64,000 nt of DNA from Macrostomum lignano (taxonomy: Eukaryota). Position numbers and translations under genes: made by a program. The stretch spans positions 62,001 through 126,000 of the forward strand of contig NIVC01002447.1 of the NCBI GenBank assembly GCA_002269645.1, in the 5' to 3' direction. This document shows, piece after piece, positions 5,046-52,118 of this stretch. The notes beneath the pieces are model-generated. The model was not told where the DNA came from. It saw only the letters and a list, made by a program, of their open reading frames with translations, and ran no database searches. Position 1 is the stretch's first letter; the number at the start of each line of letters is the position of its first letter.

Positions 5046-5786
5046 ACCGTCTCTTCACTTTTTTTTCCTAGTGTCGCGTCGTTTAATTAAGAGTTCAACT
5101 GAGCAACACGATGATTTGGTATTGTAAATGAACGATGTCTCAGTCTCGATATATTAATCATAAACGATGCTAACACAAACGAAGCTCAATATATAACTAT
5201 TAACGCATTGGGGTGGCGGGGCGCACGGGGTACGAAATCGGGGTGGTGGGTACACTGGATGTACAGTCAATATTTCAATAGTCAATCAGCTAGTCACTTA
5301 GTCATAAGTACAGCGGTAGAATCCAGCGCTGCCTCACCTAGCTCTCCCATTATCCCAGCTGTCTTCCGCAGTCTATCGCCCTCTGTATCCATCTCTGAGG
5401 CGGAATAAAAAAACCGAAATCAAACGCTGATCTGTGAATGGACACAAGGCTACAAAATCACCCGCAGTCCACCCAACATCATGGATGCTGCAGCGATACT
5501 GAGCAGCCAGGGAGCGACCAGCCTCGCAATCGATGCCCGGCCGAGCCCGCCGTAATTGCCGCCGGTCACGCCATCGCTTTGAGCTGCGCCGCGACGGCAG
5601 TGGCAAGAAAAAAAAGAAATTGAGACGGGGCAGGACGCGATTGCGTAATCCACGATTGCCGCTGACCTCAGTGGCCACGGTGCACGGGAGCTGCGGCTGC
5701 TAATGATGACGCTGTTCGGGAAGCTGGGTACACTGATGAGGCGTTGAGCAGCTTCATGTGATCAATTGGAATTGCAACCTGCTGGA

Positions 5787-7357
5787 CTCTGATCTCCGAT
5801 CTCTGATCTCCGATCTCTGATCTCCGATCTCTGATCTCCGATCTCTGATCTCCGATCTCTGATCTCCGATCTCTGATCTCCGATCTCTGATCTCCGATCT
5901 CTGATCTCCGATCTCTGATCTCCGATCTCTGATCTCCGATCTCTGATCTCCGATCTCTGATCTCCGATCTCTGATCTCCGATCTCTGATCTCCGATCTCT
6001 GATCTCCGATCTCTGATCTCCGATCTCTGATCTCCGATCTCTGATCTCCGATCTCTGATCTCCGATCTCTGATCTCCGATCTATGATCTCCGATCTCTGA
6101 TCTCCGATCTCTGATCTCCGATCTCTGATCTCCGATCTCTGATCTCCGATCTCTGATCTCCGATCTCTGATCTCCGATCTCTGATCTCCGATCTCTGATC
6201 TCCGATCTCTGATCTCCGATCTCTGATCTCCGATCTCTGATCTCCGATCTCTGATCTCCGATCTCTGATCTCCGATCTCTGATCTCCGATCTCTGATCTC
6301 CGATCTCTGATCTCCGATCTCTGATCTCCGATCTCTGATCTCCGATCTCTGATCTCCGATCTCTGATCTCCGATCTCTGATCTCCGATCTCTGATCTCCG
6401 ATCTCTGATCTCCGATCTCTGATCTCCGATCTCTGATCTCCGATCTCTGATCTCCGATCTCTGATCTCCGATCTCTGATCTCCGATCTCTGATCTCCGAT
6501 CTCTGATCTCCGATCTCTGATCTCCGATCTCTGATCTCCGATCTCTGATCTCCGATCTATGATCTCCGATCTCTGATCTCCGATCTCTGATCTCCGATCT
6601 CTGATCTCCGATCTCTGATCTCCGATCTCTGATCTCCGATCTCTGATCTCCGATCTCTGATCTCCGATCTCTGATCTCCGATCTCTGATCTCCGATCTCT
6701 GATCTCCGATCTCTGATCTCCGATCTCTGATCTCCGATCTCTGATCTCCGATCTCTGATCTCCGATCTCTGATCTCCGATCTCTGATCTCCGATCTCTGA
6801 TCTCCGATCTCTGATCTCCGATCTCTGATCTCCGATCTCTGATCTCCGATCTCTGATCTCCGATCTCTGATCTCCGATCTCTGATCTCCGATCTCTGATC
6901 TCCGATCTCTGATCTCCGATCTCTGATCTCCGATCTCTGATCTCTGATCTCTGATCTCCGATCTCTGATCTCCGATCTCTGATCTCCGATCTCTGATCTC
7001 CGATCTCTGATCTCCGATCTCTGATCTCTGATCTCCGATCTCTGATCTCTGATCTCCGATCTCTGATCTCCGATCTCTGATCTCCGATCTCTGATCTCCG
7101 ATCTCTGATCTCCGATCTCTGATCTCCGATCTCTGATCTCCGATCTCTGATCTCTGATCTCCGATCTCTGATCTCTGATCTCTGATCTCTGATCTCCGAT
7201 CTCTGATCTCCGATCTCCGATCTCTGATCTCCGATCTCTGATCTCCGATCTCTGATCTCCGATCTCTGATCTCCGATCTCTGATCTCCGATCTCTGATCT
7301 CCGATCTCTGATCTCCTATCTCTGATCTCCTATCTCTGATCTCCGATCTCTGATCTC
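5787..7357. repeat. 14-bp satellite (ctctgatctccgat), built from two 7-bp subunits, >100 copies
   Basis: Direct reading; 7-bp slippage variants occur after ~6940. Confidence 0.97.
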
Positions 7358-28413: not shown

Positions 28414-31314
28414 TTAATTAAATTTCTTTACTTTGCGAACTGCACACCGCTTATAAGCAGCAGCTTTCAAGCTGCGCATCTTTTCCCGGCACCAATGATG
28501 CAACCGCAAGCGAACAAATGCCAAGACAATACTGTTGTGCACATCAGAAAAATGTGCACTGCAAGCCGGAAATTGGATTTCATCAGACAGGAGTTTGCTA
28601 ACAATTTGTGCAGCCACCTTTGGAAGCAAAGCGCATGTTTCAATTTTTTCTAAAAAAGCCGCCTCCAATCTTGAAAACGCATGAAGGGCAGCGGCTGAAG
28701 GCTGCGTCACTCCGTTGACTGCATGGCTAAATAGCTTGTTCTTTAGGTGTACACCTCTAGGCTCTGCGGCAGTTAGCACCTGCTTGCATGCACAGCATTC
28801 CAGAACACGGCTTGTTTTGAGCACAAAGCCACCGACGTACTTAGTGGCTTCAGCAAGAATAGGATCTGGTTGAGATGGCTGCGATGCCTGCTGAGCAATG
28901 CTGGTCGTAGGAAAGTCGCTTGGAGATGCGCAGCTCGTGTCTGCAGCAGCAGGCGAAAGATTGGCTGTCACAGCCGCAGTGCACCCATCGTCTTCACAAT
29001 TCCGTGCTGCAGAATCAGGGCGATCAAGTCCGCTAGCTGCCACTGATCTCAATGCTCCGACAAATGCTGCCAGCTCGGGCTTCTCATTGAAACCATTTCG
29101 GCCTCTTATAATGCTGAAGAGATTCTGCAAAACGTTGCCATTTTTTGAATATTTAATTGATAACTCGCTATTTTAATTTATTATCATTAAAATTATTCTA
29201 CAACTCACTTCCACGTGATCCTGAGTCAGACTGCGAGTGCAGACGTAGTCGAAACTCTCCTCGTCGATCAGCGCAGTTGAGAGCTCACGAATCGATGCAG
29301 CTGAAAGGCGCCAAGCTTCTTTAAACTTCATAGTCGACTTTTCAGGCTTGCCGCTTTTCGGTAAAAATCGCAAGCTCTGCAGAAAGGCCTCAGCTTTGCG
29401 CAGCTCGTTAGTTTGTGCAGCTAGCGACTCGCGGCAGATCGGCCGCTTGAAGCCTTTGTCGTGCACTATTGCGGAGTTCAGCATATCGAACAGATCGTTT
29501 ACGCGCTGTAGAAACTCCGCCGTCTGCGAAGCGCTGGGCTCTATTTCCTGATAATGCAAAAGAGTTTGCATACCGCTGGCAACTGAATGACTGAGCACTT
29601 GAGCTGCTATAGACACGCGCATCTTCTGTCCAAGCGGTAGGGCGATATGAGCGTCAGTAAGTCGACTTGCCAATCGAAGTGAACGGCTACGATCGGCTTC
29701 AAAAAAATCCACAACATGCTGCCATTTTGCCAGTTTGTTTCCGTCAAAAGCCACATCGTTTTTCATAAGCGCATTGCGTAGATTCTTCAGACAATGTGGT
29801 ATGTCTACTATCACATACACCGGCTTTAGGCTCACTGGGTGACGAAAAAAAGGCGCAGATGGTGAGACCTGCAAATCACATTTAGGCGATTTAGCTTTCA
29901 TTTAATTACTCGGAATTTTGTAAATCAGTAAATGATATTTCAGATTTAGTTATATAGATATAGTCCCCGTATAGACTATATAGTCCTCGTATAGTCCCAC
30001 AAATACAAGTTAGTAGCCAAATAACTAACTTACCATTCGAGAGAGTAGTGCCCACTGTGTTGTCTCCTGGTCAGCAACAAGAGCAATGACTCGAATACCG
30101 ATAGCATGACTCGCATGGAGACAATTTTCGATTGCAGCGGCAAAGCCCGACTGTCCGAGAGTTCGATGAACTGGGTAATAGGCGATAGCTTGCTTCCAGT
30201 TTGCTGAAACGGCTCGCAAAACAGCAACGATGGCTTCCGTGATAGGCTTTAGAACTTGCTGAGCATTTTCAGTGGAGCTGCTTGTGTCAAAGCCGATGAC
30301 TTCATCTTTGTGTTGATCGTAGCGAACGCTAGGTGATAGGCTCATCCCATCGAAGCATAGGGTTGCTATTCGCTGATGTTCTGGGCCTGTGGCAAGTTTC
30401 TGTTTCAGCAGCATCAGAGTTGTTGAGCAGACTCCTGGCGATTTGAAGAACTGACATGTCCGGCGCTTGAGTGCAGACTCCGAAGGAAGGGGTAGCTGCC
30501 AATCTTTTCTGAGCATCCTGTATGCAGCCGGGTTTTTATGGTGGAGCCTTATTGTAGCGGTGAGGTCATCCTTTGACCATCTCATGCCGCGAGCTGCGAT
30601 GAAGTGAAGCTTCCTGCTGTTTGAGGCCATACGACGCATTGGAGTACTTCCGAATTTAATCCCTTAGCCTTGCAAATTTGCTGCTGCAGACGCTTGATGG
30701 TCGCTCGTTGTCTGCTCACGCGCTGACGTGTTTTTCTTAGCTGTACTAAAGTCTTGCTATGCCCAGCGGTTATGGCAGATTTTGCAACACACTGATTTCT
30801 AGACTGCGTAGACAGAATTAAATGAGGCATAGCTACCGCTACTGGATCTTTGTCCCAGCGCTCGAGCTGAGGTGGGTAGGTGTTATCTGCTTCTTCATCA
30901 CTTCTAGCTACCACTGGTTTGATATCGTAACGACTCAAGCGAGGCATCGTCAGTTCGAGGTCTGGAAGGGCGTCCCAGCGCAGCCGTGCTCCGGCACTGT
31001 CTTAAAGCTGGGCAGTTGTATGCGGTAGACAGGAAGTGCAAGCTGCAGACTCGCAGCTCTTTGGTGATCGTCAGAACATCAGATAAGATGTTTCTTGGAT
31101 AAGACATCCTTCCAGGGGCTCGTGTTTTGCCAGCTGACATTTCGAAGCGCATAATTCCCGGGATGGAGAGGAGAGGAAAACAAACATGTGGTATGAAATT
31201 GTTCTCGTTGTTTTTGAGCAGGGGAGAGGATATGGAATCAGAGCAGAGGGTAGGAGCAAGGGCAAAAACTTTTGAGTGGGGCACTGGGCAGTGAGTCAGA
31301 GTGAGTCCACTCAC
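28414..31314 (-). pseudogene. THAP/P-element (THAP9-like) transposase, spliced, with frameshift(s)
   Basis: THAP signature RVCSLHF; core motifs LPLPSESAL, LCFDGM, WKQAIAYY, DIPHCLKNLRN, KMRVSIAAQVLS, FDMLNS, LTQDHVE|NLFSIIRG. GT-AG introns near 30030-29870 and 29205-29130. Element termini not identified. Confidence 0.9.
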
Positions 31315-31555
31315 TCCACTGTATGCTTGTGCATTTCGAGAGCGTGCACACGCACACTGAGTTAGAAATTCATGTCAAATGTTATCTACGAGCCATAGAG
31401 TTATGGATATGATTCTTATCACAAGCGCTCAGAACGAGTAAGAGAGAAACCAAGACTTGTTTTCTTGACTGTACGCGGTTCCAGTGATAGTCATGTCTGG
31501 GTTTGGTAAGGGAATGAGACATGAATTTGGACTTTATAGTTCTCGTAGATCCTAG

Positions 31556-32370
<815 letters not shown>

Positions 32371-32373
32371 AAT

Positions 32374-32391
32374 TGGCGCCCAATGTGGGGC
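32374..32391 (+). promoter_or_regulatory. Primer-binding site, tRNA-Lys(1,2) type
   Basis: tggcgcccaatgtggggc versus the known Lys1,2 PBS TGGCGCCCAACGTGGGGC: 17/18 match, 3 nt after the LTR. Confidence 0.9.
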
Positions 32392-32553
32392 CTGCTGTGC
32401 CTGTGAGTTGTGAAGGCGAGTGTCTGTTGCATTGTTTATTGTTTATGGTGTTGACCGATCGTCTGGGGGTTATCGTTTTGCTGGCTGAAGCGAACTTGGA
32501 GCCGAACTTCTCAATCGTGCATCGGAACGTTCCGCACTGCTGTACTGTGACTC

Positions 32554-33516
32554 ATGGCGGGTATCGATGACCTGATTGGTGCGCTGACGGACAGGCTGCG
32601 CGAGAATTTCAACCATGGGCCCCCAAGAGTTGCGAAACCGATGAAGTACGTGACTGGAATGAATTTCCGCCTGTGGTTGAGGAGTTTCAACGAATTTTGT
32701 GAGGCTACTGGGATTGAAGAAGCGGATCGAAGGCCACATCTGATGAGTCTGCTGGATCTCAACACAGCTTATCTCGCGGTGGACAACCTTAATCTGGCGG
32801 ATGATCTGGAGTATGAGGAGTTTACTGAGCATCTGCTGAACAGGTTCACGCAGCATCGGACTCCGCAGGACTTCAGATTGGAGCTGGCTGGACGGGACCA
32901 AGACCAGAAGGAGTCGATGGAGGCCTACGGTGACGCCCTGCTCGAGATAATCCGGAACGCCTATCCGACGATTGATCAGGACGCGAGATCGGAGCTGGCC
33001 AAGGACCGATTCATGAAAGGTGTGCGAGTAGCCGAGCCAGTCCGAGAGAAGTTGTTTCTTAGCCAGCCGGAGAGTCTGGCTGCTGCGATCAGGAGTGCCC
33101 GTCAGCTGGACGCTGCAATTCGAGCGGCTCACGTCGGGCAGCCGGGCCGAGGCAAGACGGCGGCGTTCAACGCTGTAGGTGCAGCCGGGGAGGCAAATCA
33201 AGAGGACGTCGGCGCCCTGCGGGCCAGGATCGAGGAGCTGGAACGGCAGCTACGGCAGAGTCAGGCGTCAGGATCTGGCGGAGGGAAGAGTTCTCAGAGA
33301 CCACCGCCAGCGAATCAACAGAGCGATGTGGAGTGTTGGAATTGCCACGAGAAGGGGCACATGGCGAACCGCTGTCCGAAGAAAGCCGGAGGTCAGCACC
33401 AAGGAGCTCAAGCGGGACGCGGCATTCGGTGTCACCGGTGTGGCAAACTTGGTCACGTGGCTGCCAAGTGTCGATCGGAGGGAAATGGAGAGCGGGGCCC
33501 GCAGTGGGGGAAGTGA
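32554..33516 (+). CDS. gag: Gag with two CCHC zinc knuckles
   Basis: CWNCHEKGHMANRC and CHRCGKLGHVAAKC; capsid-like N-terminal region. Confidence 0.93.
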   Translation: MAGIDDLIGALTDRLRENFNHGPPRVAKPMKYVTGMNFRLWLRSFNEFCEATGIEEADRRPHLMSLLDLNTAYLAVDNLNLADDLEYEEFTEHLLNRFTQHRTPQDFRLELAGRDQDQKESMEAYGDALLEIIRNAYPTIDQDARSELAKDRFMKGVRVAEPVREKLFLSQPESLAAAIRSARQLDAAIRAAHVGQPGRGKTAAFNAVGAAGEANQEDVGALRARIEELERQLRQSQASGSGGGKSSQRPPPANQQSDVECWNCHEKGHMANRCPKKAGGQHQGAQAGRGIRCHRCGKLGHVAAKCRSEGNGERGPQWGK

Positions 33517-36500
33517 GCCCCGGAGGTCAGAAACGCCCCCAAATGGAGCCGTCGAGGAGAAGGGATCAAGCGTCATGCAACTCGTCATCAATCGTCCTAC
33601 CTGTTGCGTCATCAACCATCTCACCTGTTGTGTCATCAATCGTCCCACCTATTGCGTCATCAATCGTCCCATCTGTTGCGTCATCAATCGTCTCACCTGT
33701 TGCGTCATCAACCGTCCCACCTGCTGCTTCATCAACGTTCGCACCGGCTGCGACATCACAAACTAGAGCATCTAGCACCATCCGGAATCCGAGTATTTCA
33801 CAGGCCACCATCAACATCGTCCCGACGTCAGTCTATGTGAGTATAAGGATTGCAAAAGATAACCCCGTGTCAGCGCTGTTGGACTCGGGAGCCTCGTGTA
33901 CCATTATGTCGGAGGCGATGTTCTCGCGGTTGCGGTACAAACCAGAGCTCTTCCGGGGGTCATTCGCCAAAGTCACGACTGCAAATGGCAGTCCCATTCA
34001 AGTGATTGGTGTCACCACGTTGGACTTAGAAATTGATGAGAGCGTGCCGATCGACGTGCTGGTGGTGTCAGGAATTGGTTACGACCTCGTGTTGGGTTCG
34101 GACTTTCTGCAACGGCATGGCTGTCAAATCGATTACGCCAGAGCAGAGCTGCGACTCAGGAATGTAGTGCTTCCGATCCGGTTCCAACGGGAGCGACCAG
34201 TCGTGTGCCGGATTCGCCTGAATGAGACAGCAACGGTTAAGCCAGGCCACGAGGCGGTTCTGCTCGGCCGACTGGATAAGCGAAGAGGTCGAAATGTCCG
34301 AGTAGCAGGAATGATGGACCCGTTAAAGCACCCTAAGGGAACTGGAGTGGTTGCCGCGAGAGCGCTTGTGACACCGGATGAGAACGGAAAGATTGTGGTT
34401 CGTGTCTGCAACCTATCTGAGCAACCGGTGCGGCTGCGGCGAGGAGAGGCAGTTGGCTGGTATCGACCGCTGGAACTGGAAGAGCAGCCAAGGATCGCGG
34501 TGTTGCAGAGTGATTCAGAGGAACGTCCCAGCAAGACATTTAAGGCCGAGGAACGCAAAGACGACAAGGTTTGGGAGAAGCTTGGCCAGTGGGGCGACGG
34601 AATGGCGACTGAGAGGCAGCACCAGCGGTTTAAGAACTTAGTCGACGCGTACGGTGATCTTTTCGCGACGGACTCAGCACAGTTGGGTGTGACACCCTTG
34701 GTGGAGCACCAGATCGACACTGGAGAGGCCAAGCCGGTCAACATCCCGCCGCGGAGACTGCCCCCGCACCTTAGGCAAGAAGTGCATGCTCTCGTGGATG
34801 AACTTGAGGAGCAAGGACGCATTGAGTCAGCACAGTCTCCTTGGAACGCGCCAATCGTTTGTGTACGCAAGAAGGATGGCAGTTTACGGATGTGTGTAGA
34901 CTACCGTGGTTTGAATAAAGTAACGACGAGAGATGCTATTCCGTTGCCGAGGATGGACGATGCATTGGACGAACTGGCGGGAGCAAGAGTGTTCAGCTCG
35001 ATGGACCTCCACAGCGGCTACTGGCAGGTGAAAGTAAGACCGGAGGATCAACTCAAGACGGCCTTCTCGGTGCCTCTGAAGGGTCAGTACGTGTGGAAAG
35101 TGATGCCGTTCGGACTCGTCAATAGCCCTGCAACTTTCACGCGACTGATGGCTCTGGCAATGCGCGACGTGGCCTGGAAGACGTGCTTAATCTACCTGGA
35201 CGATATCCTGGTGTGGTCCAAGACGGTTGACGAGCATCTGGAAAGGTTAGAAGAGGTGTTCATACGGCTGCGGAAGGCTGGAGTTAAGTTGAAGCCGGAG
35301 AAGTGTCATTTTCTGATGAAGAAGGTAACGTTCCTGGGCCATCAAGTGTCGGAGGCGGGAGTGGAGACGGAGAGTGAGAAGGTCGAAGTGATCAGAAACT
35401 GGCCCCAACCGAAGAACACCAGAGACGTGCAATCGTTCATAGGATTGTGCAGCTATTACCGCCGTTTTATTAAAAACTTCTCGAGTGTTGCCGAGCCGCT
35501 GCTCAGGTTGACTCGCAAAGGTGTCGAGTTTGAGTGGGGACCGGACGAAGAGCGATCGTTTCGGGACTTGAAAGCGCGGCTGACGAGTACAGACGTGATG
35601 GCGTTTCCGGATTTTGGACCCGAGGCTGGCGAGTTCATTCTCGACACGGATGCGAGCTCATCTATTGGCGTTGGCGCCGTGTTGTCTCAGAAGCAAGTGG
35701 ACGGTAGTGAGAAGGTTATTGCGTATGGCTCAAGATCGTTGTCATCGGCAGAGCGGAACTATTGCACGACGAGAGTAGAACTGCTGGCGGTGGTGACGTT
35801 CATGGTCAAGTATCGGTACTACCTGGCGGGAAGAAGATTCTGCTTGCGAACTGATCACAACAACTTGAAGTGGATTCACAATCTGAAGGATCCGGAAGGT
35901 CAGTGTGCTAGGTGGCTGGAGAAGCTGGCAGAATTCGATTACTACGTGGTGCATCGCAGCGGGCTCTGTCATGGAAATGCGGATTCGTTGTCAAGGCGGC
36001 AGACCCGGCGACATGCAGGCTTCTTGGAATGTCCGTCCTGCTCAGATGTTGCACCAGTGATCTCAAATGGTGTGAGTGCGCTGAACGTGGCTGACGAGCG
36101 ACATGAACTGGTAAAAGCTCAGGACGAGGAAGACCAGATTCGATGGATGAAGGAGCTGGTCAGCGGAAATGAGAGCGTGAGCGAAAAGCTGAGATTGACC
36201 CCAGGGGGCAAAGCGCTCATGGCGCAGTGCGAGCTGCTCAAGGTGGACGGCGGGATATTGGTGCGGAGGTGGAAAGGCACGGACCAGATTGTGCTACCAC
36301 AGTGTCTGCTGCAGAGGATTGTGATAGACTGTCATAGCGGCGTGGCGGGCGGCCATTTCGGCCTGCAGAAGACAAAGCGAAAGGTCCTTGCACGGTTCTG
36401 GAGACCCGGGATCAGCCGCGAGATCGCTGAGTGCGTAAGGAGCTGCGAAGTCTGCGGCCGCTCGAAGTTGGCGAAGAAGGCTAGAGCTCCACTGGAGCCG

Positions 36501-37688
36501 ATTCGAACGGGCGAACCTTTTGAGAGAGTGATGGTGGACATTGTCGGGCCGTTGCCAAGGAGTGCCAGAGGTCATCAGTACATCTTAACGCTGCAGGATG
36601 CGTTCACTAAATGGCCGGTAGCGATCCCGATCCGTAACCAACGAGCATCAACAGTGGCGCGCGCCATATTTGGGCACTGGATTAGTATCTACGGTTGCCC
36701 GAGTTCGATTCACAGTGACCAAGGGCGGAACTTCGAGTCTCGAGTAATGCAAGAGCTGTGCACGCTGCTGAAAATCCAGAAAACCAGAACCACGGCCTAC
36801 CACCCAAGTGGAAATGGGCAGGTGGAGAAGTTCAATCAGATGTTGAAGTCAGTACTGCGGAGCTACATCGCTGAGGGAGCAGAGTCACACAAATGGGATG
36901 AACTAATCGACTCAGCCTTGATGGCGTACCGTTCAAGTGTGCATCGCGGCACTGGCTACACACCGTACTTCCTCCTGCACGGCCAAGAGATGCGATTACC
37001 ACTGGATGTAGCTTACAAAACACCACAAGAGCCGCTGGACGAGTCAACGTACGTGGCCGGCTTGAGAAAGCACCTCCATCAAGCACATGAAGCAGTGCGA
37101 CAAGCGACCGGCACATACCAGAAGTTGCAGAAGGACTATTACGACAAGAAAGTACGGGGATCCGCGCACCAACCAGGGGACCGAGTTTTTGTTTTCGTGC
37201 CAGCCAAGCCTGGGGAGGTGCCGAACAAGTTCCGGGTTGATTGGAAGGGACCAGTGGAAGTGGTGCGGAAGATTTCTGAGACCGTGTACGAAGTTCAGAA
37301 TCCGGCTAATCCAAGGAAGACCAAAAGAGTACATTTCAACAACCTGTCGCCTTTCAAAAAGTCGAAGTCAGCGACGAACGAAGCGAGACAGGAGGAAGGA
37401 GGTGCGGTGACAGAGGACGCGCAGAGCCAAGAAGATGAAGAGGAAGAAGCTGAGCAGGTAGGCCGACGTGGTCGACCACCACCAGCGGAGGTTGAGCCAG
37501 GGCTGGAGAACGAGGTCGATGGCAGCGTGAGAAGCTCGGAGTCGCCGCAAAGTGGCCTGCCGGAAGAATGGGAAGGACTAGATCCACCAGAAGAATGGGA
37601 AGGACCAGAAGCGCCCGCAGCGGAGACCTTCACCACCAGGAGATATCCGACTCGGCTCAGGCGACCGCCAGATCGGCTAAGGTTCTGA
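33333..37688 (+). CDS. pol: Pol (protease-RT-RNase H-integrase), in the -1 frame relative to gag; the true start is probably the frameshift near 33486
   Basis: LLDSGAS protease, YLDD RT, TDASS RNase H, HHCC zinc finger, VDIVG/SDQG/QVEKFN integrase, Gypsy domain order, no stops over 1451 codons. Confidence 0.97.
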   Translation: MLELPREGAHGEPLSEESRRSAPRSSSGTRHSVSPVWQTWSRGCQVSIGGKWRAGPAVGEVSPGGQKRPQMEPSRRRDQASCNSSSIVLPVASSTISPVVSSIVPPIASSIVPSVASSIVSPVASSTVPPAASSTFAPAATSQTRASSTIRNPSISQATINIVPTSVYVSIRIAKDNPVSALLDSGASCTIMSEAMFSRLRYKPELFRGSFAKVTTANGSPIQVIGVTTLDLEIDESVPIDVLVVSGIGYDLVLGSDFLQRHGCQIDYARAELRLRNVVLPIRFQRERPVVCRIRLNETATVKPGHEAVLLGRLDKRRGRNVRVAGMMDPLKHPKGTGVVAARALVTPDENGKIVVRVCNLSEQPVRLRRGEAVGWYRPLELEEQPRIAVLQSDSEERPSKTFKAEERKDDKVWEKLGQWGDGMATERQHQRFKNLVDAYGDLFATDSAQLGVTPLVEHQIDTGEAKPVNIPPRRLPPHLRQEVHALVDELEEQGRIESAQSPWNAPIVCVRKKDGSLRMCVDYRGLNKVTTRDAIPLPRMDDALDELAGARVFSSMDLHSGYWQVKVRPEDQLKTAFSVPLKGQYVWKVMPFGLVNSPATFTRLMALAMRDVAWKTCLIYLDDILVWSKTVDEHLERLEEVFIRLRKAGVKLKPEKCHFLMKKVTFLGHQVSEAGVETESEKVEVIRNWPQPKNTRDVQSFIGLCSYYRRFIKNFSSVAEPLLRLTRKGVEFEWGPDEERSFRDLKARLTSTDVMAFPDFGPEAGEFILDTDASSSIGVGAVLSQKQVDGSEKVIAYGSRSLSSAERNYCTTRVELLAVVTFMVKYRYYLAGRRFCLRTDHNNLKWIHNLKDPEGQCARWLEKLAEFDYYVVHRSGLCHGNADSLSRRQTRRHAGFLECPSCSDVAPVISNGVSALNVADERHELVKAQDEEDQIRWMKELVSGNESVSEKLRLTPGGKALMAQCELLKVDGGILVRRWKGTDQIVLPQCLLQRIVIDCHSGVAGGHFGLQKTKRKVLARFWRPGISREIAECVRSCEVCGRSKLAKKARAPLEPIRTGEPFERVMVDIVGPLPRSARGHQYILTLQDAFTKWPVAIPIRNQRASTVARAIFGHWISIYGCPSSIHSDQGRNFESRVMQELCTLLKIQKTRTTAYHPSGNGQVEKFNQMLKSVLRSYIAEGAESHKWDELIDSALMAYRSSVHRGTGYTPYFLLHGQEMRLPLDVAYKTPQEPLDESTYVAGLRKHLHQAHEAVRQATGTYQKLQKDYYDKKVRGSAHQPGDRVFVFVPAKPGEVPNKFRVDWKGPVEVVRKISETVYEVQNPANPRKTKRVHFNNLSPFKKSKSATNEARQEEGGAVTEDAQSQEDEEEEAEQVGRRGRPPPAEVEPGLENEVDGSVRSSESPQSGLPEEWEGLDPPEEWEGPEAPAAETFTTRRYPTRLRRPPDRLRF

Positions 37689-37808
37689 GCGGGTTGGGGA
37701 TTGTCGGCGGGTTAGGTGGTTGGAGCGGGTGGATGAGTCGGCAGGCACACGGACCAGGTTTAGTAGCGGAGAAATGAGAGTTTAACGGCTAGAAACGGCA
37801 CTCCGTAG

Positions 37809-38791
37809 ATGTCCTTGTACGACGAACTGGAGATCGACCAGTGGGTGGAGGCAACTGCAGTCAAGAGAGCCTATCGGCGGCTAGCCCTGAAGTATCACCC
37901 GGACAAGCACCCGGACCGAGCATTCGCAGAAGAGAAATGCAAAGCCCTCAACGTCGCGTATGAAATTCTCGGTTGCCCATTTCGGCGGTGGCTGTACGAC
38001 CTGTTCGGTGAGGAGTCCGTGTCTTTCAGTGGTGCGGTGGAGTTGGCTAGACAGGTTCAGCCCCCGCCAGGCATTCCCGTGCCAGAGGACATCCTGGAAG
38101 CAATCAGGCTGGAAGAGAGGACATGCCGAGCGAGGACGAGCAGTCGGATGCAGACGCCTGCGTTGGAGACGACGAACCCGTGGAAACCGACAGTGAGTCT
38201 GCCGTCAGCGACGGTAATCGGCCGCCCGACTGGGAGGCAGAGGAGCAGGGTTTTCGTCAGTCATTTGAGCGAAGCTATGCGCCAGACAGCGGCTATTGCA
38301 TCATTATCAGTGACGACGAAACAGACCAGATCGGAGAGATGGAAACAGACGGGGAGGACCTGACGGATGTCGAGGGTTGGAAGCTGGTACCGGTAGGGGC
38401 GACGACAGTCGAGATGGAGGAGCTACCGTTACCGAGCACAACGAGATTTGTGGAGCTGCGCCGGAGTCTGAGAACGGCACTGCTGAAGGGCGAGGAGGAA
38501 GAGATCGTGAACGTGTTTGAGGAGCTGGCTGACCTGTTTAGGGTGCGGCGAGAAGAGCCGAGTCGTTATCTGACGGCGGTGACACTTCAAGTGCTTAAAT
38601 TTCTGCGCCGGGACATTTCAGTGACGTGGTCCAAGGGACGCGGTCGTCGGAGCGGTTGGAAACGCGAATGTTTAAAGCGAGCAGCGCGAGTGATGCGGAA
38701 GGTGGTGATCCCTCGGTTCGAGCTGCTAGGTGCGGGTCAGGTCCAGGCGCTGCTGCGCTGGTGTGCTCGTGTGGTGGCGTGCGAGTGCTAG
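37809..38791 (+). CDS. ORF3: J-domain (DnaJ/Hsp40) protein with acidic linker and helical C-terminal domain; one -1 frameshift near 38120 (about 327 aa if repaired)
   Basis: YDELEI...VKRAYRRLALKYHPDKHP...AEEKCKALNVAYEILGCPFRRWLYDLFGEE matches J-domain helices I-IV with HPD. ORFs 37809-38363 and 38123-38791 join by adding one G at gagagg|acatg (EERDMPSEDE). Confidence 0.85.
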
Positions 38792-39260
38792 TGGGGTGCG
38801 AGTGTGGGTGTGCTGGCGGGGTGGCAGGCAGGTGCCCTTGAGGGTTGTCAGTTGTGTTGGCTCGCGTTCTCGGAAAGGGGTGCTGTTTCGGGTCGTTGGG
38901 TAGGGGGGCAACCGAGGTGATAGGGACAAGGCGGTGGCCGGTTCCGGAGCGGAGCGAGGACGGACCCGAGGCCAGGGCGGACGCCCACGCTGCACCCGGG
39001 CCCGGGGACAGGGCCACCGTTGCGGACGAAGTTGTGCTCGGACACCACCAAGGGAGGCGATTGGACCCTGCCTGAAGTGACCGTTCTATTTGTTCTATAG
39101 TTATCGTTCTATAGCTATCTATTTGTAATTCATCGTCTCATCACTTGATTTTTGGGGCCATGCCTAGTGTCATGTTTTTTGTTCTTTAGCATTATCTTTT
39201 GTGGTGGTGGGTAATTACGGTACTACGCGTTAATTTGCGAATCGTTGGGTTTCTTTTTTT

Positions 39261-39271
39261 GGAGGGCGGGG
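39261..39271 (+). promoter_or_regulatory. Polypurine tract
   Basis: ggagggcgggg immediately before the 3' LTR. Confidence 0.85.
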
Positions 39272-40086
<815 letters not shown>

Positions 40087-41594
40087 CTAGAATATTTTTT
40101 AGTCTTTTTTAACACCTTTAGGCCATGTATTTAAAATGAGGCTTGTGTCTCTCCGGTAAAGATTTTCGTGACAGAACAAAGAGAAGGGAAAGAGAGAGAC
40201 ATTCATACCATCGCAAGCCTTTTGCATAAAAAGTTCACAGAGCCATTGTTTTTTAGTTTTAGCCAATTTGCCTTTTTTCCTATCAAAAAATTTTCAATTT
40301 CCCAGTCAGCCCCAACAGACCAAGGAATAAAAATGCAGTTTCGATTTTGATAAGCAGGTTTGGAAGTGATCAACCCAATTCGTTGGAAATGCGCCTTCTT
40401 AGATACATTTACAATAAGGGAAAAAAAGAAACAAAGAACAAAGCTCCCTCGTGGAACAAAGACCCCAAGCCCCAACTGGGGGGAAAGACGGAGGGAGAAG
40501 CATTGCCCCCGTGTCCAGTTGCTTACTTACTCACGGGGTCCGCGCAACAGACCATATATTTTTCGATAAGGGCCTGCGGTTAAAACAGTCTTCCTGCCAT
40601 AAAACTGTCTATGACAGGATGATTGAGTGTCTGAGGTAGCGGAGCACAGCCGATATCTTATCTGTATGCCCGTATAGCCCCATGAACAGATGTAGAGTTA
40701 GTTCGTCTTTAGGTTTCCATATATATATATATCTTGCTTTTGATTCTAAATACTGAATGCAGGTGGCAACAAACAACTGACACTTCGTGCAAATGAAAGG
40801 CTTCAAAAATGAAATAGCTGGAATTTTTGTCTTGTATTTGTTTTAGGAACAACAGAGAAATGAATTATTCATAACCCAGACTCAAGACGTTCAAGCTCGA
40901 AAAAATGCAGAATTGAAAACGCTAACTCTCTCCTAAAAATATAAAAATACAAATATATTTCACTTCATGAGATATTCCGTAGCAAACATAAAAGAAGAAA
41001 CATTCAAAGATAAATAATCGAAATACCTAATGCGCTAAACGGGTATTCCTAGCAAACAAATTTCCATAGCATTCAGCTCAGACAATGTGCAAAATGTGCA
41101 AAAGCACGTGGGTATTGTATGTCATTATAATGTCACCGTACAGAACACTGGCATCAGACAGCAATCGGTTTATCAATGACTGAATGTTCCCAAACAATTC
41201 CCGAGCACCTGACAGCTGCAGATTCGGCAGTAAAAGCAGAGGAGTCGGAACACTTCCTGCATTGAAGATAAGGAGGTGCGAGAGGATTGTAACCCTACTT
41301 GCTCAATCTACTTCATTTATTTTATTTAGGGTACCTTGACATTCGATTCCCCCGAATCAGCAGATCTACCCAATCTGCTAGTCTATTCCTCTCTCCATCT
41401 TCATCGCCTCTTTCCCCTAACTTTCTCTACATAATCTCACTCTCATAAAATTCCCATCTCAGAATCTCACTCTCTGACAATTGGATATATATATATATAC
41501 ATTACTCTCCCTCTACTTCTCTATCTACTGCAACGTATCAACTTATCACTCTCAGTCTACTATATTTTCGAAATAAACTGCTTCGAAATCTCAC

Positions 41595-47585: not shown

Positions 47586-50500
47586 TGTTGTGTATGAGTG
47601 TGCATATGCATGTGGGTGACACTGAAGCTTGGGCTATATGAATAGTACTGTCTATGGTATAAATACACGTTGACGGCCTAGAGAGACGGCCACGCCCTCT
47701 GAGCTTTATTTTCATCAGACTGCGCGCTATAGAAGATATAACCCTCTCGGCTTCGCGATATATAACATGGCTTCGCAAGCAGCCAGAGAAGAAGCCCACG
47801 AATAAGAAGTCAAGGCTAAGCAAGAGCAAGATTGCAGAGCTGCAATTGTTCTGGGGCGTTCCTGTAGAAATGCCTCCAAAGCCGAAAATTGACTTAAAAA
47901 GCGCTCCACACTTCGACCTCGAATCTCAGAAGGCCGTATTCCCACAATGGAAGCAGTTGTGGGAGGCTTTCGAGGAACTATCAGGCCTGAACGACATCGA
48001 GCAAGAGGCCGAGAAGAAGAAGTTCCAACTCTTCGCTTTGCGACACTGCCTGCCTGAGTCTGGAGACCCTACGAGTGGTGGACAGCTTACCTCAGCTACT
48101 AGGAAAGGATAAAGACGACGCCAAGGAGATCATCAAGGCCCTGGAAGCATTCATCACCGGGCAGAAGAACGAGATATTCGAGAGGAGGGAACTCTGGCTA
48201 CGAAATCAAGCAGAAGGTAAGAGCTTCAATGATTGGTACGTGTCCATCAAAGAAATCTCGTCCAGGTGCAACTTCGAGCGATGCTGTGACGGGTGCGCCG
48301 AATACCAGCTCAGAGACAGAATTGTCATGGGACTGCGCGACCCCAGCACTGTAGAGAAGTTGCTAGAGGAAGGCAGTGAGCTAACGCTGGAGAGAGCAAA
48401 GACCATTTGTGAGTCGATGGAGAGTTCGAGGAAAAACTGCGCCATAATGAAGGGCGAGACACCGACCGTCTCCGCTGTGCGACACGCGTCAAGCTATCGG
48501 AAGGCCAAGCGGACTGGAGCCGCGGAGAATCGACAGGCAGGAAGACCTGTTCAACAGAGCCGGGCGAAACATCCTGGTCAAGCCTGCAAGTTCTGCGGAC
48601 GAGAGCACGAGGTCGGCAAAGAGAAATGTCCGGCCTGGGGGAAGTCGTGCACAAAGTGCGGCAAGCTCAACCATTTCGCTAAGCAGTGCAGAAGTGGACA
48701 GTCAGCCAAGCACGGCGAGAGAGTCCACTCAATTTTCGCCGCAACTGGCGCACAAGGGACCTCAGCATGCTGTGTGGAGGTAAAAATTCGCACCCCTGAC
48801 GGAACAAAGACCATCGCCGCCTTACCGGACACAGGCGCTTTCATAGATGCCATCCCTGAGAGCTTGCTGCCTATAGTAGGAGCAGATATGAACAACCTAC
48901 ATCCGTCAGACATCAAACCCAAGGCAGTCGACGGCCGGCTATTAAAAGCCAAGGGCTCGATTCAGCTGCAAGTATCCATGGGTGAGACTGAGCTGCAGTG
49001 TACGTTTCACGTCCTCAGCGGAATATCCATCATGATTCTATCAAGAGAAGCGTGTCGTGATCTGGGTATCATTCCAAGAAACTTTCCAAAGCAAATCGTG
49101 GCAAGTATGAATCAGCACGATACCAACGCTGGCACAGAGGAGGACCTAAAAAAAGAGTTTTCGGACGTGTTCACCGGAAAAGTTGGCAGAAGGGCTGGTG
49201 AGATGTTCAGAATTAAACTATCAGCGGACGCAAAGCCGTTTGCCATTTCGACCCCGAGAAGAATTGCGGAACCGCTCAAGTTACAACTCAAGAAGGAACT
49301 GGAGGATCTCGAGCGAGATGGGATCATAGCAAAGGTCACAGAGCCTACGGAATGGTGTGCGCCGATCACCGTGCAGCCAAAGAAAGGCCAGAGCAAGATA
49401 AGAATGTGCGTCGACCTACGGTGCTTAAACAAATACGTCATCCGAGAGCGCTACGTCAGCCAAACGCCATTTGAAGTTGTGTCAAGTGTACACAAGGGCG
49501 CCAGGTTCTTCACAACCGTTGACGCCACGAAAGGATACCACCAAGTGCCGCTGGATGACGCGTCACAAATACTGACAACTTTTATCACACCATTCGGACG
49601 GTACAAGTTCCTACGTGCCCCCTTTGGACTGTCGTCCATATCGGAGCATTACAATAGGCGTGTGGATGAAGTGCTAGAGGGACTGAAGAGCACCTATCAT
49701 ATTGTGGACGACGTACTGCTGGCTCACGGCGACTTTGACGAGCATCGCCGTGCCGTTCGCGAGTTTCTGCAGCGATGCAGGGACCGCGGCATCAGCCTGA
49801 ATCCAGAGAAGTTTGCGTTTGCTCAGCCCAGTGTGACATTTGCCGGATTCCAGTTGGACTCGAAAGGCTACGCTATAGACCCTGCCATAGTGAAGGCGAT
49901 TCGAGACTTCCCGAAGCCAGAAAATCTGACCGACCTCAGAGCGTTCTTCGGACTAGTGAATCAGATTGGGTTCTGTAGTGACAAGATAGCTTCCCTCGGT
50001 GAGCCGTTGAGAGAGTTGTTGAAACCGAGGAATGAGTTCATGTGGAGCTGCGAACACGAAAAAGCATTTGACAGCATGCGGAAAGAACTAAGCAATGTTC
50101 CTACAATGGCCTACTATGACCACACGAGGCAGACAGCACTGCACACGGATGCGTCTCGACTGAAGGGGCTTGGATTCGTGCTCAAGCAAAAGCAAAACAA
50201 TGGCATTTGGAAACAAGCAGGCTCGCGGTTCATTTCGGAGACAGAGAGGTGATACGCCATGATTGAACTGGAGCTGTTGGCAGTCGTATGGGCGGCAAAG
50301 AAATGTCGTCTGTTCCTCGAAGGACTGCAGAATTTTGAGATAATCATCGACCACAAGCCGTTGGAGCCGATTTTAAATAGATACACCTTGGATCAGATCG
50401 AGAATCCGAGGCTTCAGAGGTTGCGACAGAAACTGGATTGCTTTCAGTACACGGCTCGATGGGTGAAAGGCAGTGACCACAAAGCCGCCGATGCTTTGTC

Positions 50501-52118
50501 AAGAGCCCCGGTAGAGCCGGCAACCAAGGACGAAGAAATTGCGGAGGAGCACGAGAGCAATATCATCATGGCTATCGATGAGATTCAAGCTTCTGAAGCA
50601 GAGTTGACGCGGATTGCCAGAAGAGACCAGGAGTACCAGGAGCTGAAGCGATTGGTTCAGCAAGGATTCCCTAACGAGAAGGGAAACGTACCGGTCCATC
50701 TAAGACAATCTTGGAACATCCGCGACAAACTAGCAGTCGAGCATGACTTGATCGTTGTAGGAAGGCGATTGCTCATTCCCAAGGAGATGCGAGCAGAAGT
50801 CATGAATAGGATGCTCAAGATGCATCAGGGAATCGTTAAGATGAAAGAGAGAGCCAGAATGACTTTCTACTGGCCGGGAATCGACAACGATATAGAAATG
50901 TCAGCCAGGAAGTGTATCCCGTGCCAAGAGACTTTGCCTAGTCAAGTAAAGGAGCCGATGGTTGTGAGAAAGGAACCGGAACGCGTCTTTCAAGAAGTCC
51001 ATGCCGACTTGTTTCAATTCGCTGGGAAGATGTTCCTGGTGACTGTGGACGGAAAGTCTGGTTGGCCAACACTAGACTACTTCGGAACTGATGCCTCAAC
51101 GTACAAGGTGATCAACGTGCTGCGAAGACGTTTCTGTGAGAAGGGCGCGCCGGAGGTGTTATGGTCAGACAATGGACCGCAATTCACAGCCAAGCCATTT
51201 CTGGGATTCCTGCGTCGTTGGAATGTGGAGCAGAGGACATCATCCCCACGTACGCTCAGAGCAATGGGCGAGCGGAGGCAGCCGTCAAGGCAATGAAAAA
51301 GCTGGTGCGTGGAAATTGGAATCACGGAGCCAGAGAGCCGAACTGGGACGATCTCTGCCAGGGGATACTGATGTACTGCAACACTCCGCGATACGACGGC
51401 AGGTCACCAGCACACATGGTGTTCGGTCACGAGGTTCGCGATACCCTGCCAGTTCACCGGAGAGCGTTCGCCAAGGAATGGCAAGCAGCAGCAGATGAGG
51501 TGGACAACAGGGCAGCGGAGAAGAGGGAGAGGATGGAGGTGTACTACAATAGAGCAGCTCACCAACTCCCAGTCTTGCGAGTGCGAGACAGAGTTGCAGT
51601 GCAGGACGCCCAGACCAAGCGATGGGACAAGTACGGCGTGGTGGTCGAGCTAATGAAAAACAACGACTTTCTAGTCAAGCTGACCAGCGGCCGGGTTCTT
51701 CGGAGAAACCGGAAGTTCCTGCGGAGAAGGTTTCCAGCACATGCGGCAGAAGCTCGCTACCAGCCCAATACTGGCCCTGCGGACTCGCAAGGTACGAATG
51801 AAGCCAGAGGGCCGGAAGGACGATCAAGACCGTGGCATACGAGAAACCGTCGGCCACCCAACAGGCTTCAGATTGACCCCCGCAAAAGTTCGTACGACTG
51901 ACTGACAAGAAGTCACATTGTAACTGAAGGGGGAGGTGTTGTGTATGAGTGTGCATATGCATGTGGGTGACACTGAAGCTTGGGCTATATGAATAGTACT
52001 GTCTATGGTATAAATACACGTTGACGGCCTAGAGAGACGGCCACGCCCTCTGAGCTTTATTTTCATCAGACTGCGCGCTATAGAAGATTTAACCCTCTCG
52101 GCTTCGCGATATATAACA
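47586..52118 (+). mobile_element. Mag-like Ty3/Gypsy LTR retrotransposon (4533 bp)
   Basis: 182-bp LTRs at 47586-47767 and 51937-52118 with one mismatch, 5-bp CAGTA TSD, TGG directly after the 5' LTR, PPT gaagggggagg. Confidence 0.97.
47870..51901 (+). pseudogene. Disrupted single gag-pol ORF of the Mag-like element
   Basis: Mag-type C..C..H..CPA.GK.C..C.K.NHF knuckle, LPDTGA protease, VDD RT, TDAS RNase H, SDNGPQF integrase. Lesions: 4-bp cctg duplication at ~48050, in-frame TGA at 50250, 1-bp loss at ~51250. Confidence 0.92.

What the first reader, a model, noticed from the sequence alone, without database searches (positions are those of the whole stretch)
37809..38020. J-domain (Hsp40) gene carried in the env slot of a young Gypsy retrotransposon
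An intact four-helix J-domain with HPD lies between pol and the PPT, inside near-identical LTRs, so it is part of the replicating unit. J-domains recruit Hsp70. Polyomavirus T antigens and the Jiv insertions of cytopathic pestiviruses are viral precedents, but I do not know of a described LTR retrotransposon family with one. It may co-opt Hsp70 for particle assembly, uncoating or disassembly of host silencing complexes. This is the best candidate for an undescribed system in the window.
Basis: partly seen in the sequence, partly recalled or inferred. Interest (0 to 1): 0.9.

Follow-up and report, generated by a model that had tools for sequence, protein, structure and literature searches.

The report
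Flatworm retrotransposons carrying an Hsp70 co-chaperone
A whole branch of Gypsy-type jumping genes in a free-living flatworm has long carried an extra gene for a J-domain protein, the kind of adaptor that aims the cell's Hsp70 chaperone at a target, and may use it against the host's silencing machinery.

Summary
Confirmed, and larger than reported. An HPD J-domain (Pfam DnaJ, E 2e-16) starts a third gene between pol and the PPT of a young Ty3/Gypsy element (LTRs 99.8% identical, 4-bp target duplication). The full gene is about 327 codons: J-domain, acidic linker with a SUMO-interaction-like motif, and a five-helix domain with no database match. In this copy it lies in two frames; sibling copies hold it as one. 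It is not a one-off capture. It sits behind integrase in several families whose RTs are only 56-67% identical, all in one pol clade (97/98), with dN/dS mostly 0.1-0.3. One family adds an HP1-like chromodomain; others add a TatD-like fold lacking most catalytic residues. Families that lost HPD, the J part or the whole gene still made new insertions, so it is accessory. The host is Macrostomum lignano. Best reading: an adaptor bringing Hsp70 to a nuclear, SUMO- or chromatin-marked target, probably anti-silencing; the target is inferred, not shown. Ten paper searches found no description; Repbase, Dfam and GyDB were not searchable. The scan had not noted this before.

The parts
31552..31555 (.). 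Left target-site duplication, CTAG (right copy 40087-40090)
31556..32370 (+). 5' LTR, TG...CA; no three-unit heat-shock element
32374..32391 (+). Primer-binding site; tRNA-Lys type by recall, not tested
32554..33516 (+). gag, open frame, two CCHC zinc knuckles, weak PNMA-type capsid hit (E 0.015)
33063..37688 (+). pol, open stop-to-stop frame of 1541 codons: protease, RT, RNase H, integrase; overlaps gag in the -1 frame
37806..37808 (+). YAG directly before the ORF3 start; candidate splice acceptor
   Evidence: AG ends 0-1 nt before the ATG in 8 of 10 subfamilies (4 of 6 families); no spliced read seen
37809..38018 (+). ORF3 J-domain, HPD at 37896-37904
38019..38120 (+). ORF3 two-helix extension after the J-domain; the frame of this copy changes near its end
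38123..38419 (+). ORF3 acidic, disordered linker (second frame in this copy) with SIM-like IIISDD at 38300-38317
38420..38791 (+). ORF3 C-terminal five-helix domain with a basic loop; no family or fold match; stop at 38789-38791
39261..39271 (+). Polypurine tract
39272..40086 (+). 3' LTR

Best explanation
ORF3 is an old accessory gene of one Ty3/Gypsy clade that encodes a modular Hsp70 adaptor. Shown: an ancestor of the clade held a J-domain joined to a five-helix domain, and descendants kept both under selection. Inferred from J-protein biology: the HPD loop engages host Hsp70 and triggers ATP hydrolysis, so Hsp70 grips whatever the rest of the protein holds. Inferred from the motifs: the target is nuclear and marked by SUMO (hydrophobic strand + S/T + acidic run in the linker) or by chromatin (HP1-like chromodomain in family F5). 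Most likely the protein loosens or removes a host silencing complex at the element's own loci, in the way polyomavirus T antigen uses J + LxCxE to release E2F from Rb (recalled). It is probably made from a spliced sub-genomic RNA (inferred from the YAG at the start) and can act in trans, which would let families with damaged or deleted ORF3 keep moving. About 0.85 that it is a selected Hsp70-recruiting accessory factor; about 0.45 for the full nuclear anti-silencing reading.
For: HPD is kept in 15 of 17 element-type J rows. dN/dS is below 1 in all 27 estimable ORF3 comparisons of 30, with the upper bound below 1 in 23 of 27; J + extension gives 0.10-0.16 in six deep pairs. 15 of 16 element J-domains form one clade against 14 host J-domains (96/93), and holding all 16 together is not rejected (p-AU 0.56). 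The TatD-bearing families group in both the J tree (99/91) and the pol tree (100/99). A SIM-like motif occurs in 9 of 16 linkers against 0.13 expected from shuffles (pattern chosen after seeing the sequences). The F5 insert is a chromodomain (Pfam E 1.4e-12), best matching Swi6/HP1 (E 1.4e-10). No transmembrane segment. The gene is dispensable in cis, as expected of a counter-defence factor and not of a structural one.
Against: No target is identified and the C-domain has no known fold or function. 7 of 16 linkers lack the strict SIM-like pattern, and the SIM reading rests on a recalled motif. The F5 chromodomain has valine at the third aromatic-cage position (cage positions recalled), so methyl-lysine binding is doubtful. 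Family F8 lost HPD and the acidic linker yet is young and numerous (13 matches at 100% and 7 more at 96-99%), and its degenerate J region is still partly conserved (0.16 and 0.65 in two pairs), so Hsp70 activation is not the only thing selected. Expression of ORF3 as its own transcript is not shown.
Confidence: 0.45

Rival explanations
1. ORF3 is a private co-chaperone for the element's own proteins: it brings Hsp70 to Gag or Gag-Pol to help folding, particle assembly or uncoating.
For: This is the role proposed for J-domains found in 11 RNA virus families (10.1101/2022.02.15.480533, passage seen). HPD is conserved, and the C-domain could bind Gag or RNA through its basic loop.
Against: F9 (J and C deleted) and F10 (no ORF3 found) made separate new insertions with 98.7-100% LTR identity. 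The related family id38 has no ORF3. A chromodomain and a SIM-like motif are not needed for this role.
Confidence: 0.25
2. ORF3 acts at integration: it tethers the integration complex to particular chromatin, or brings Hsp70 to take apart the spent intasome.
For: Chromodomains guide integration in chromoviruses (recalled). F5 has one in ORF3. Clade B carries a TatD-like fold without most catalytic residues, which could be a nucleic-acid binder.
Against: The chromodomain is in one family only and is not fused to integrase. No insertion-site bias was tested. ORF3-less families integrate with normal 4-bp duplications.
Confidence: 0.15
3. ORF3 tunes the host stress response, for example by titrating Hsp70 away from heat-shock factor, and so raises transcription of the element.
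For: Other LTR families of this species are switched on by heat through heat-shock elements (PMC12801592, parts 1-2 read).
Against: No three-unit heat-shock element in any of 14 LTRs from this clade; only one two-unit site, in F2.
Confidence: 0.1
4. ORF3 is passively carried host sequence without function for the element.
For: It is broken in this copy and in several others, and lost in two families.
Against: dN/dS far below 1 in J, C and TatD-like parts; kept across RTs 56-67% identical; only 38-48% identical to the nearest host J-domain sampled. pol is broken in many copies too.
Confidence: 0.03

Closest known systems
Bdelloid rotifer LTR retrotransposons with non-envelope ORF3 (GDSL esterase, DEDDy exonuclease; PMC5408684, passages seen)
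   Same: Animal LTR elements with a family-specific, non-env third ORF in the env position; the paper states such ORF3s are typically expressed from spliced messages.
   Different: Their cargo is enzymes; DnaJ and chaperone occur 0 times in that text, and it reports no clear departure from neutrality. Here the cargo is a J-domain adaptor under clear purifying selection.
J-domains in RNA viruses (10.1101/2022.02.15.480533, passages seen)
   Same: A virus-like replicon encodes its own J-domain.
   Different: Those are parts of polyproteins of Kitrinoviricota and Pisuviricota. This is a separate gene of a reverse-transcribing, integrated element, joined to a SIM-like linker and a helical domain.
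Polyomavirus T antigens (J-domain named in the passage; the J + LxCxE mechanism is recalled)
   Same: N-terminal J-domain followed by an acidic linker with a short motif; the model for how ORF3 may work.
   Different: No LxCxE in 9 of the 10 proteins checked (one match, in P0007); no helicase or origin-binding domain; no T-antigen match among the 50 fold-search rows shown.
Gmr1/Osvaldo cluster of M. lignano Ty3/Mdg4 elements (PMC12801592, family id38)
   Same: Same host; the J clade is sister to id38 (97/97) to the exclusion of the CsRN1 and Mag references; RT identity 51-52% against 42% and 37%.
   Different: id38 has no ORF3. The paper annotates only gag, PR, RT, RH and IN; DnaJ, Hsp40 and ORF occur 0 times in its main text.
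Chromoviruses (recalled)
   Same: A chromodomain carried by a Ty3/Gypsy element.
   Different: Here it lies inside ORF3 of one family, not at the integrase C-terminus.

Membership tests
Ty3/Gypsy LTR retrotransposon | LTRs TG..CA, PBS, PPT, target-site duplication | tested here: met
Ty3/Gypsy LTR retrotransposon | gag, then pol in the order PR-RT-RH-IN | tested here: met
Gmr1/Osvaldo cluster | Groups with cluster members in a pol tree | tested here: inconclusive
   Sister to id38 at 97/97, but only one reference each for three clusters, long outgroup branches, and no GyDB reference set
J-domain proteins (Hsp40/DnaJ) | Four-helix J fold with HPD between helices II and III | tested here: met
J-domain proteins (Hsp40/DnaJ) | Stimulates Hsp70 ATPase | not testable with these tools
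   needs an assay
Class A/B Hsp40 | G/F region and DnaJ_C or zinc-finger substrate domain | tested here: not met
   Pfam gives only DnaJ above cut-off, plus Chromo in F5; the architecture is class C-like
env-bearing Gypsy elements | ORF3 is a membrane glycoprotein with transmembrane anchor | tested here: not met
   Highest 19-residue hydropathy 0.94-1.56 in 10 proteins; no env family in Pfam
TatD nucleases (clade B ORF3 tail) | TatD profile match | tested here: inconclusive
   E 5e-5 to 2e-7; above the curated cut-off for 1 of 3 proteins
TatD nucleases (clade B ORF3 tail) | Metal-binding Glu, two His and Asp | tested here: not met
   Against 2gzx the Glu is kept; both His and the Asp positions are replaced in F8 (residue roles recalled)
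HP1-type chromodomain (F5 ORF3) | Chromo profile match | tested here: met
HP1-type chromodomain (F5 ORF3) | Three-residue aromatic cage | tested here: not met
   Tyr and Trp kept, third position Val (cage positions recalled)
SUMO-interacting motif | Hydrophobic strand followed by S/T and acidic residues | tested here: met
   9 of 16 linkers against 0.13 expected; pattern recalled and set after the fact
SUMO-interacting motif | Binds SUMO | not testable with these tools
   needs a binding assay

The most novel reading that the evidence does not exclude
A retrotransposon lineage has evolved its own chaperone-directed counter-defence: a separately expressed J-protein that finds SUMO- or heterochromatin-marked silencing complexes and has host Hsp70 strip them, with swappable aiming modules (SIM-like motif, HP1-like chromodomain, TatD-like fold) that turn over in an arms race and can be shared in trans among families.
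Probability: 0.35. Interest if true: 0.92.

Novelty: new variant of a known kind. Interest (0 to 1): 0.78.

Why it matters
Few proteins by which animal LTR retrotransposons push back against their host are known, and I found none that uses the Hsp70 machine. Here a clade has kept a J-protein through deep divergence and has gained and lost aiming modules along the tree, in a laboratory flatworm with transgenesis and published LTR reporter assays (PMC12801592). Families with HPD, without HPD, without the J part and without the gene coexist in one genome and form a natural control series. That makes the question of how animal retroelements counter silencing directly testable. The five-helix domain is also a protein family with no match in Pfam, PDB or the viral structure library.

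Tried and rejected
Complex prediction of the ORF3 linker (residues 148-190) with a host SUMO gave no verdict: score 0.24 against a mark of 0.34, controls not folded. It is no evidence either way.

RNA: no listed holder is on record as RNA. Four runs were laid, all as contigs, three only guessed to be RNA. They cover 26-30 of 30 bins and show no LTR-to-ORF3 joint; contigs cannot show strand or splicing. The joints into the J-domain there carry loose ends that translate to the F2 J sequence, so they are F2 contigs and not splices.

Fold of the C-domain: no Foldseek match at E <= 0.001 in PDB or BFVD; best VIA Z 7.8, within the background for helical bundles. ESM Atlas gave no usable hit.

Context of outside relatives: scans of metagenome contigs with P0007 and viral contigs with P0004 confirmed nothing. 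A word-index search with P0007 returned only itself. A search of the large protein set with the family alignment could not be made. So it is open whether P0003, P0004, P0007, P0008 and P0013 sit in retrotransposons and in which species.

Four of the 12 profile hits (P0009-P0012) were dropped as unrelated repeat or coiled proteins after reading them.

Also rejected: heat-shock elements in the clade's LTRs, an LxCxE motif and an env-like reading, and a host DNAJ gene interrupted by an insertion (the gene is intronless, internal to the LTRs and copied with them). No host donor for the J-domain could be named.

Full report
1. The observation. The flagged stretch encodes a full J-domain with HPD (Pfam DnaJ, 60 bits, E 1.9e-16). 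It lies 120 nt after an open 1541-codon pol frame (PR-RT-RH-IN) and before a polypurine tract. The element runs from 31556 to 40086. Its LTRs differ by two gaps and no mismatch, and it has a CTAG target duplication and a PBS. So the gene is inside a recently inserted Ty3/Gypsy element.

2. The whole gene. In the window the J frame leaves the family protein at about residue 103-104, and the remainder is read in a second frame ending at 38791. A DNA search of the genome found two more copies at 99-100% and three at 94%. Of these five, L001, L003 and L004 hold one 327-codon frame; L002 and L005 are broken elsewhere. The window, L001 and L002 have three different target duplications; L003 and L004 share one site. 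Two of the four runs laid had a contig across the break, and both read as the siblings do, so the break may be an assembly error or private to this copy; this is not settled. An AlphaFold model from a nine-row alignment shows the J-domain plus two extra helices (residues 1-104, pLDDT 84-91 in blocks to residue 100), a disordered acidic linker (113-202) and a C-terminal domain. Alone, that domain folds as five helices at pLDDT 89 and matches nothing clearly.

3. Spread in the genome. The J region gave 146 matches from 150 scored of 228 candidates. I fetched 60 loci picked by hand to cover the score classes. By my reading, 34 of 60 carry the element-type ORF3 and 26 are host DNAJ genes. Of the 34, 24 have pol pieces directly upstream on the same strand; 10 are truncated or rearranged. 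The families' RTs are 56-67% identical to the window's. I then fetched 20 loci chosen by RT similarity from the 102 matches. Seven are family F8 (558-residue ORF3: J without HPD, C-domain, TatD-like tail). Three are F9, a deletion form of F7 that lacks J and C and keeps the TatD-like tail. Four are F10, with no ORF3 found. Six are interrupted or decayed copies. F7 and L030 have HPD-J, C-domain and TatD-like tail. F5 has a chromodomain in the linker.

4. History. In an RT+RH+IN tree the 12 rows of these families form one clade (97/98), sister to the published Gmr1/Osvaldo family id38 (97/97), which has no ORF3. The clade splits into F1/F2/F3/F5/F6 (93/94) and F7b/F8/F9/F10 (100/99). In a J-domain tree 15 of 16 element rows form a clade against 14 host rows (96/93). 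F6 falls outside on a long branch, but holding all 16 together is not rejected (p-AU 0.56). F7, F7b and F8 group there too (99/91). The simplest reading is one old capture, then gain of the TatD-like tail in one branch (or its loss in the other), a chromodomain in F5, loss of HPD in F8, and loss of most or all of the gene in F9 and F10. No host donor can be named (best identities 38-48%).

5. Selection. Of 30 ORF3 comparisons, 3 are saturated and 27 give dN/dS of 0.10-0.65; the upper bound is below 1 in 23. The four exceptions are short, close pairs, including the J-domain alone between the two F1 subfamilies (0.38, bounds 0.08-1.72). Six deep pairs give 0.10-0.16 for J plus extension; C-domain pairs give 0.14-0.29. 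gag and pol controls give 0.04-0.34. Values with dS above 1 are rough. HPD is kept in 15 of 17 rows.

6. Outside this genome. A profile of the C-domain found 12 of 1.84 billion representatives. P0002 and P0005 are gene models named Macrostomum lignano that hold the F2 and F6 ORF3. Exact matches of three published LTR motifs (46, 22 and 75 places) confirm the host. P0003, P0004, P0007, P0008 and P0013 (with its fragment P0001) are unnamed J + linker + C proteins; P0003 is 39% identical to the window family over 353 columns. P0006 is a C-domain fragment. Their hosts and neighbours are unknown. Four hits were unrelated.

7. How it may work. Shown: fold, conservation, modular make-up, dispensability in cis. 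F9 and F10 copies have distinct 4-bp duplications and 98.7-100% LTR identity. Inferred: Hsp70 recruitment through HPD; a separate spliced mRNA, because AG ends 0-1 nt before the ATG in 8 of 10 subfamilies, 4 of 6 families; and a nuclear target, from a SIM-like motif in 9 of 16 linkers against 0.13 expected (pattern set after the fact), a basic loop and an HP1-like chromodomain. Against this: the chromodomain cage is incomplete, seven linkers lack the strict motif, and the HPD-less F8 is young and numerous. I put anti-silencing at 0.45, help for the element's own proteins at 0.25, a role at integration at 0.15, stress-response tuning at 0.10 and neutral cargo at 0.03.

8. Literature. Ten searches (listings and abstract starts only) showed no LTR element with a J-domain gene. 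PMC12801592: parts 1-2 of 6 read, main text searched, supplements searched by term. It has no DnaJ, Hsp40 or ORF in the main text; the six 'DnaJ domain' rows of its table are transcript-cluster rows, not LTR-family rows. Passages only: PMC5408684, 10.1101/2022.02.15.480533, PMC13524379, PMC7264820. Not seen: Repbase, Dfam, GyDB, the earlier classification of this species' LTR elements cited in PMC12801592, subscription journals and bioRxiv supplements; any of these could hold an annotation. T-antigen mechanism, chromovirus targeting, tRNA types, SIM and cage definitions and TatD residue roles are recalled.

9. Verdict. Real, old, selected and apparently undescribed: a new variant of a known kind (Gypsy elements with a non-env third gene). 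Interest 0.78.

Noticed in passing
L035 and L036, ORF3 residues 151-201; also P0008: HP1/Swi6-like chromodomain inserted in the ORF3 linker of family F5, not at the integrase end; third cage residue not aromatic.
   Followed up: partly
L074:6778-8451, L017, L030, L069:2956-3498: TatD-like domain lacking most catalytic residues at the end of ORF3 in one branch; F9 keeps only this part.
   Followed up: partly
PBS of window, L004, L013, L014, L036, L048, L065, L068, L069: The primer-binding site differs among families, even between the two 94%-identical F1 subfamilies; by recall two Lys types, a His type and one more.
   Followed up: no
L017 and L030, start of the J-domain: No ATG at the usual start; GCAGTG stands there, so the start may come from an upstream exon or a GTG.
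   Followed up: no
P0002 and P0005: Public gene models fuse pieces of pol, ORF3 and, in P0002, other sequence; P0002 is labelled 'J domain-containing protein', so these element genes may be counted as host Hsp40s.
   Followed up: no
window 47586-52118: A second LTR element with 182-bp repeats at 99.5% and long gag/pol-like frames at 47991-51898.
   Followed up: no
window 28417-30663, minus strand: Pieces of a transposase-like frame just left of the element; P-element/THAP type by recall, not tested.
   Followed up: no
window 5628-7350: Array of a 14-bp unit, over 100 copies.
   Followed up: no
L014 and L015 LTRs: F3 LTRs differ by a block of about 100 bp between the 5' and 3' copies.
   Followed up: no
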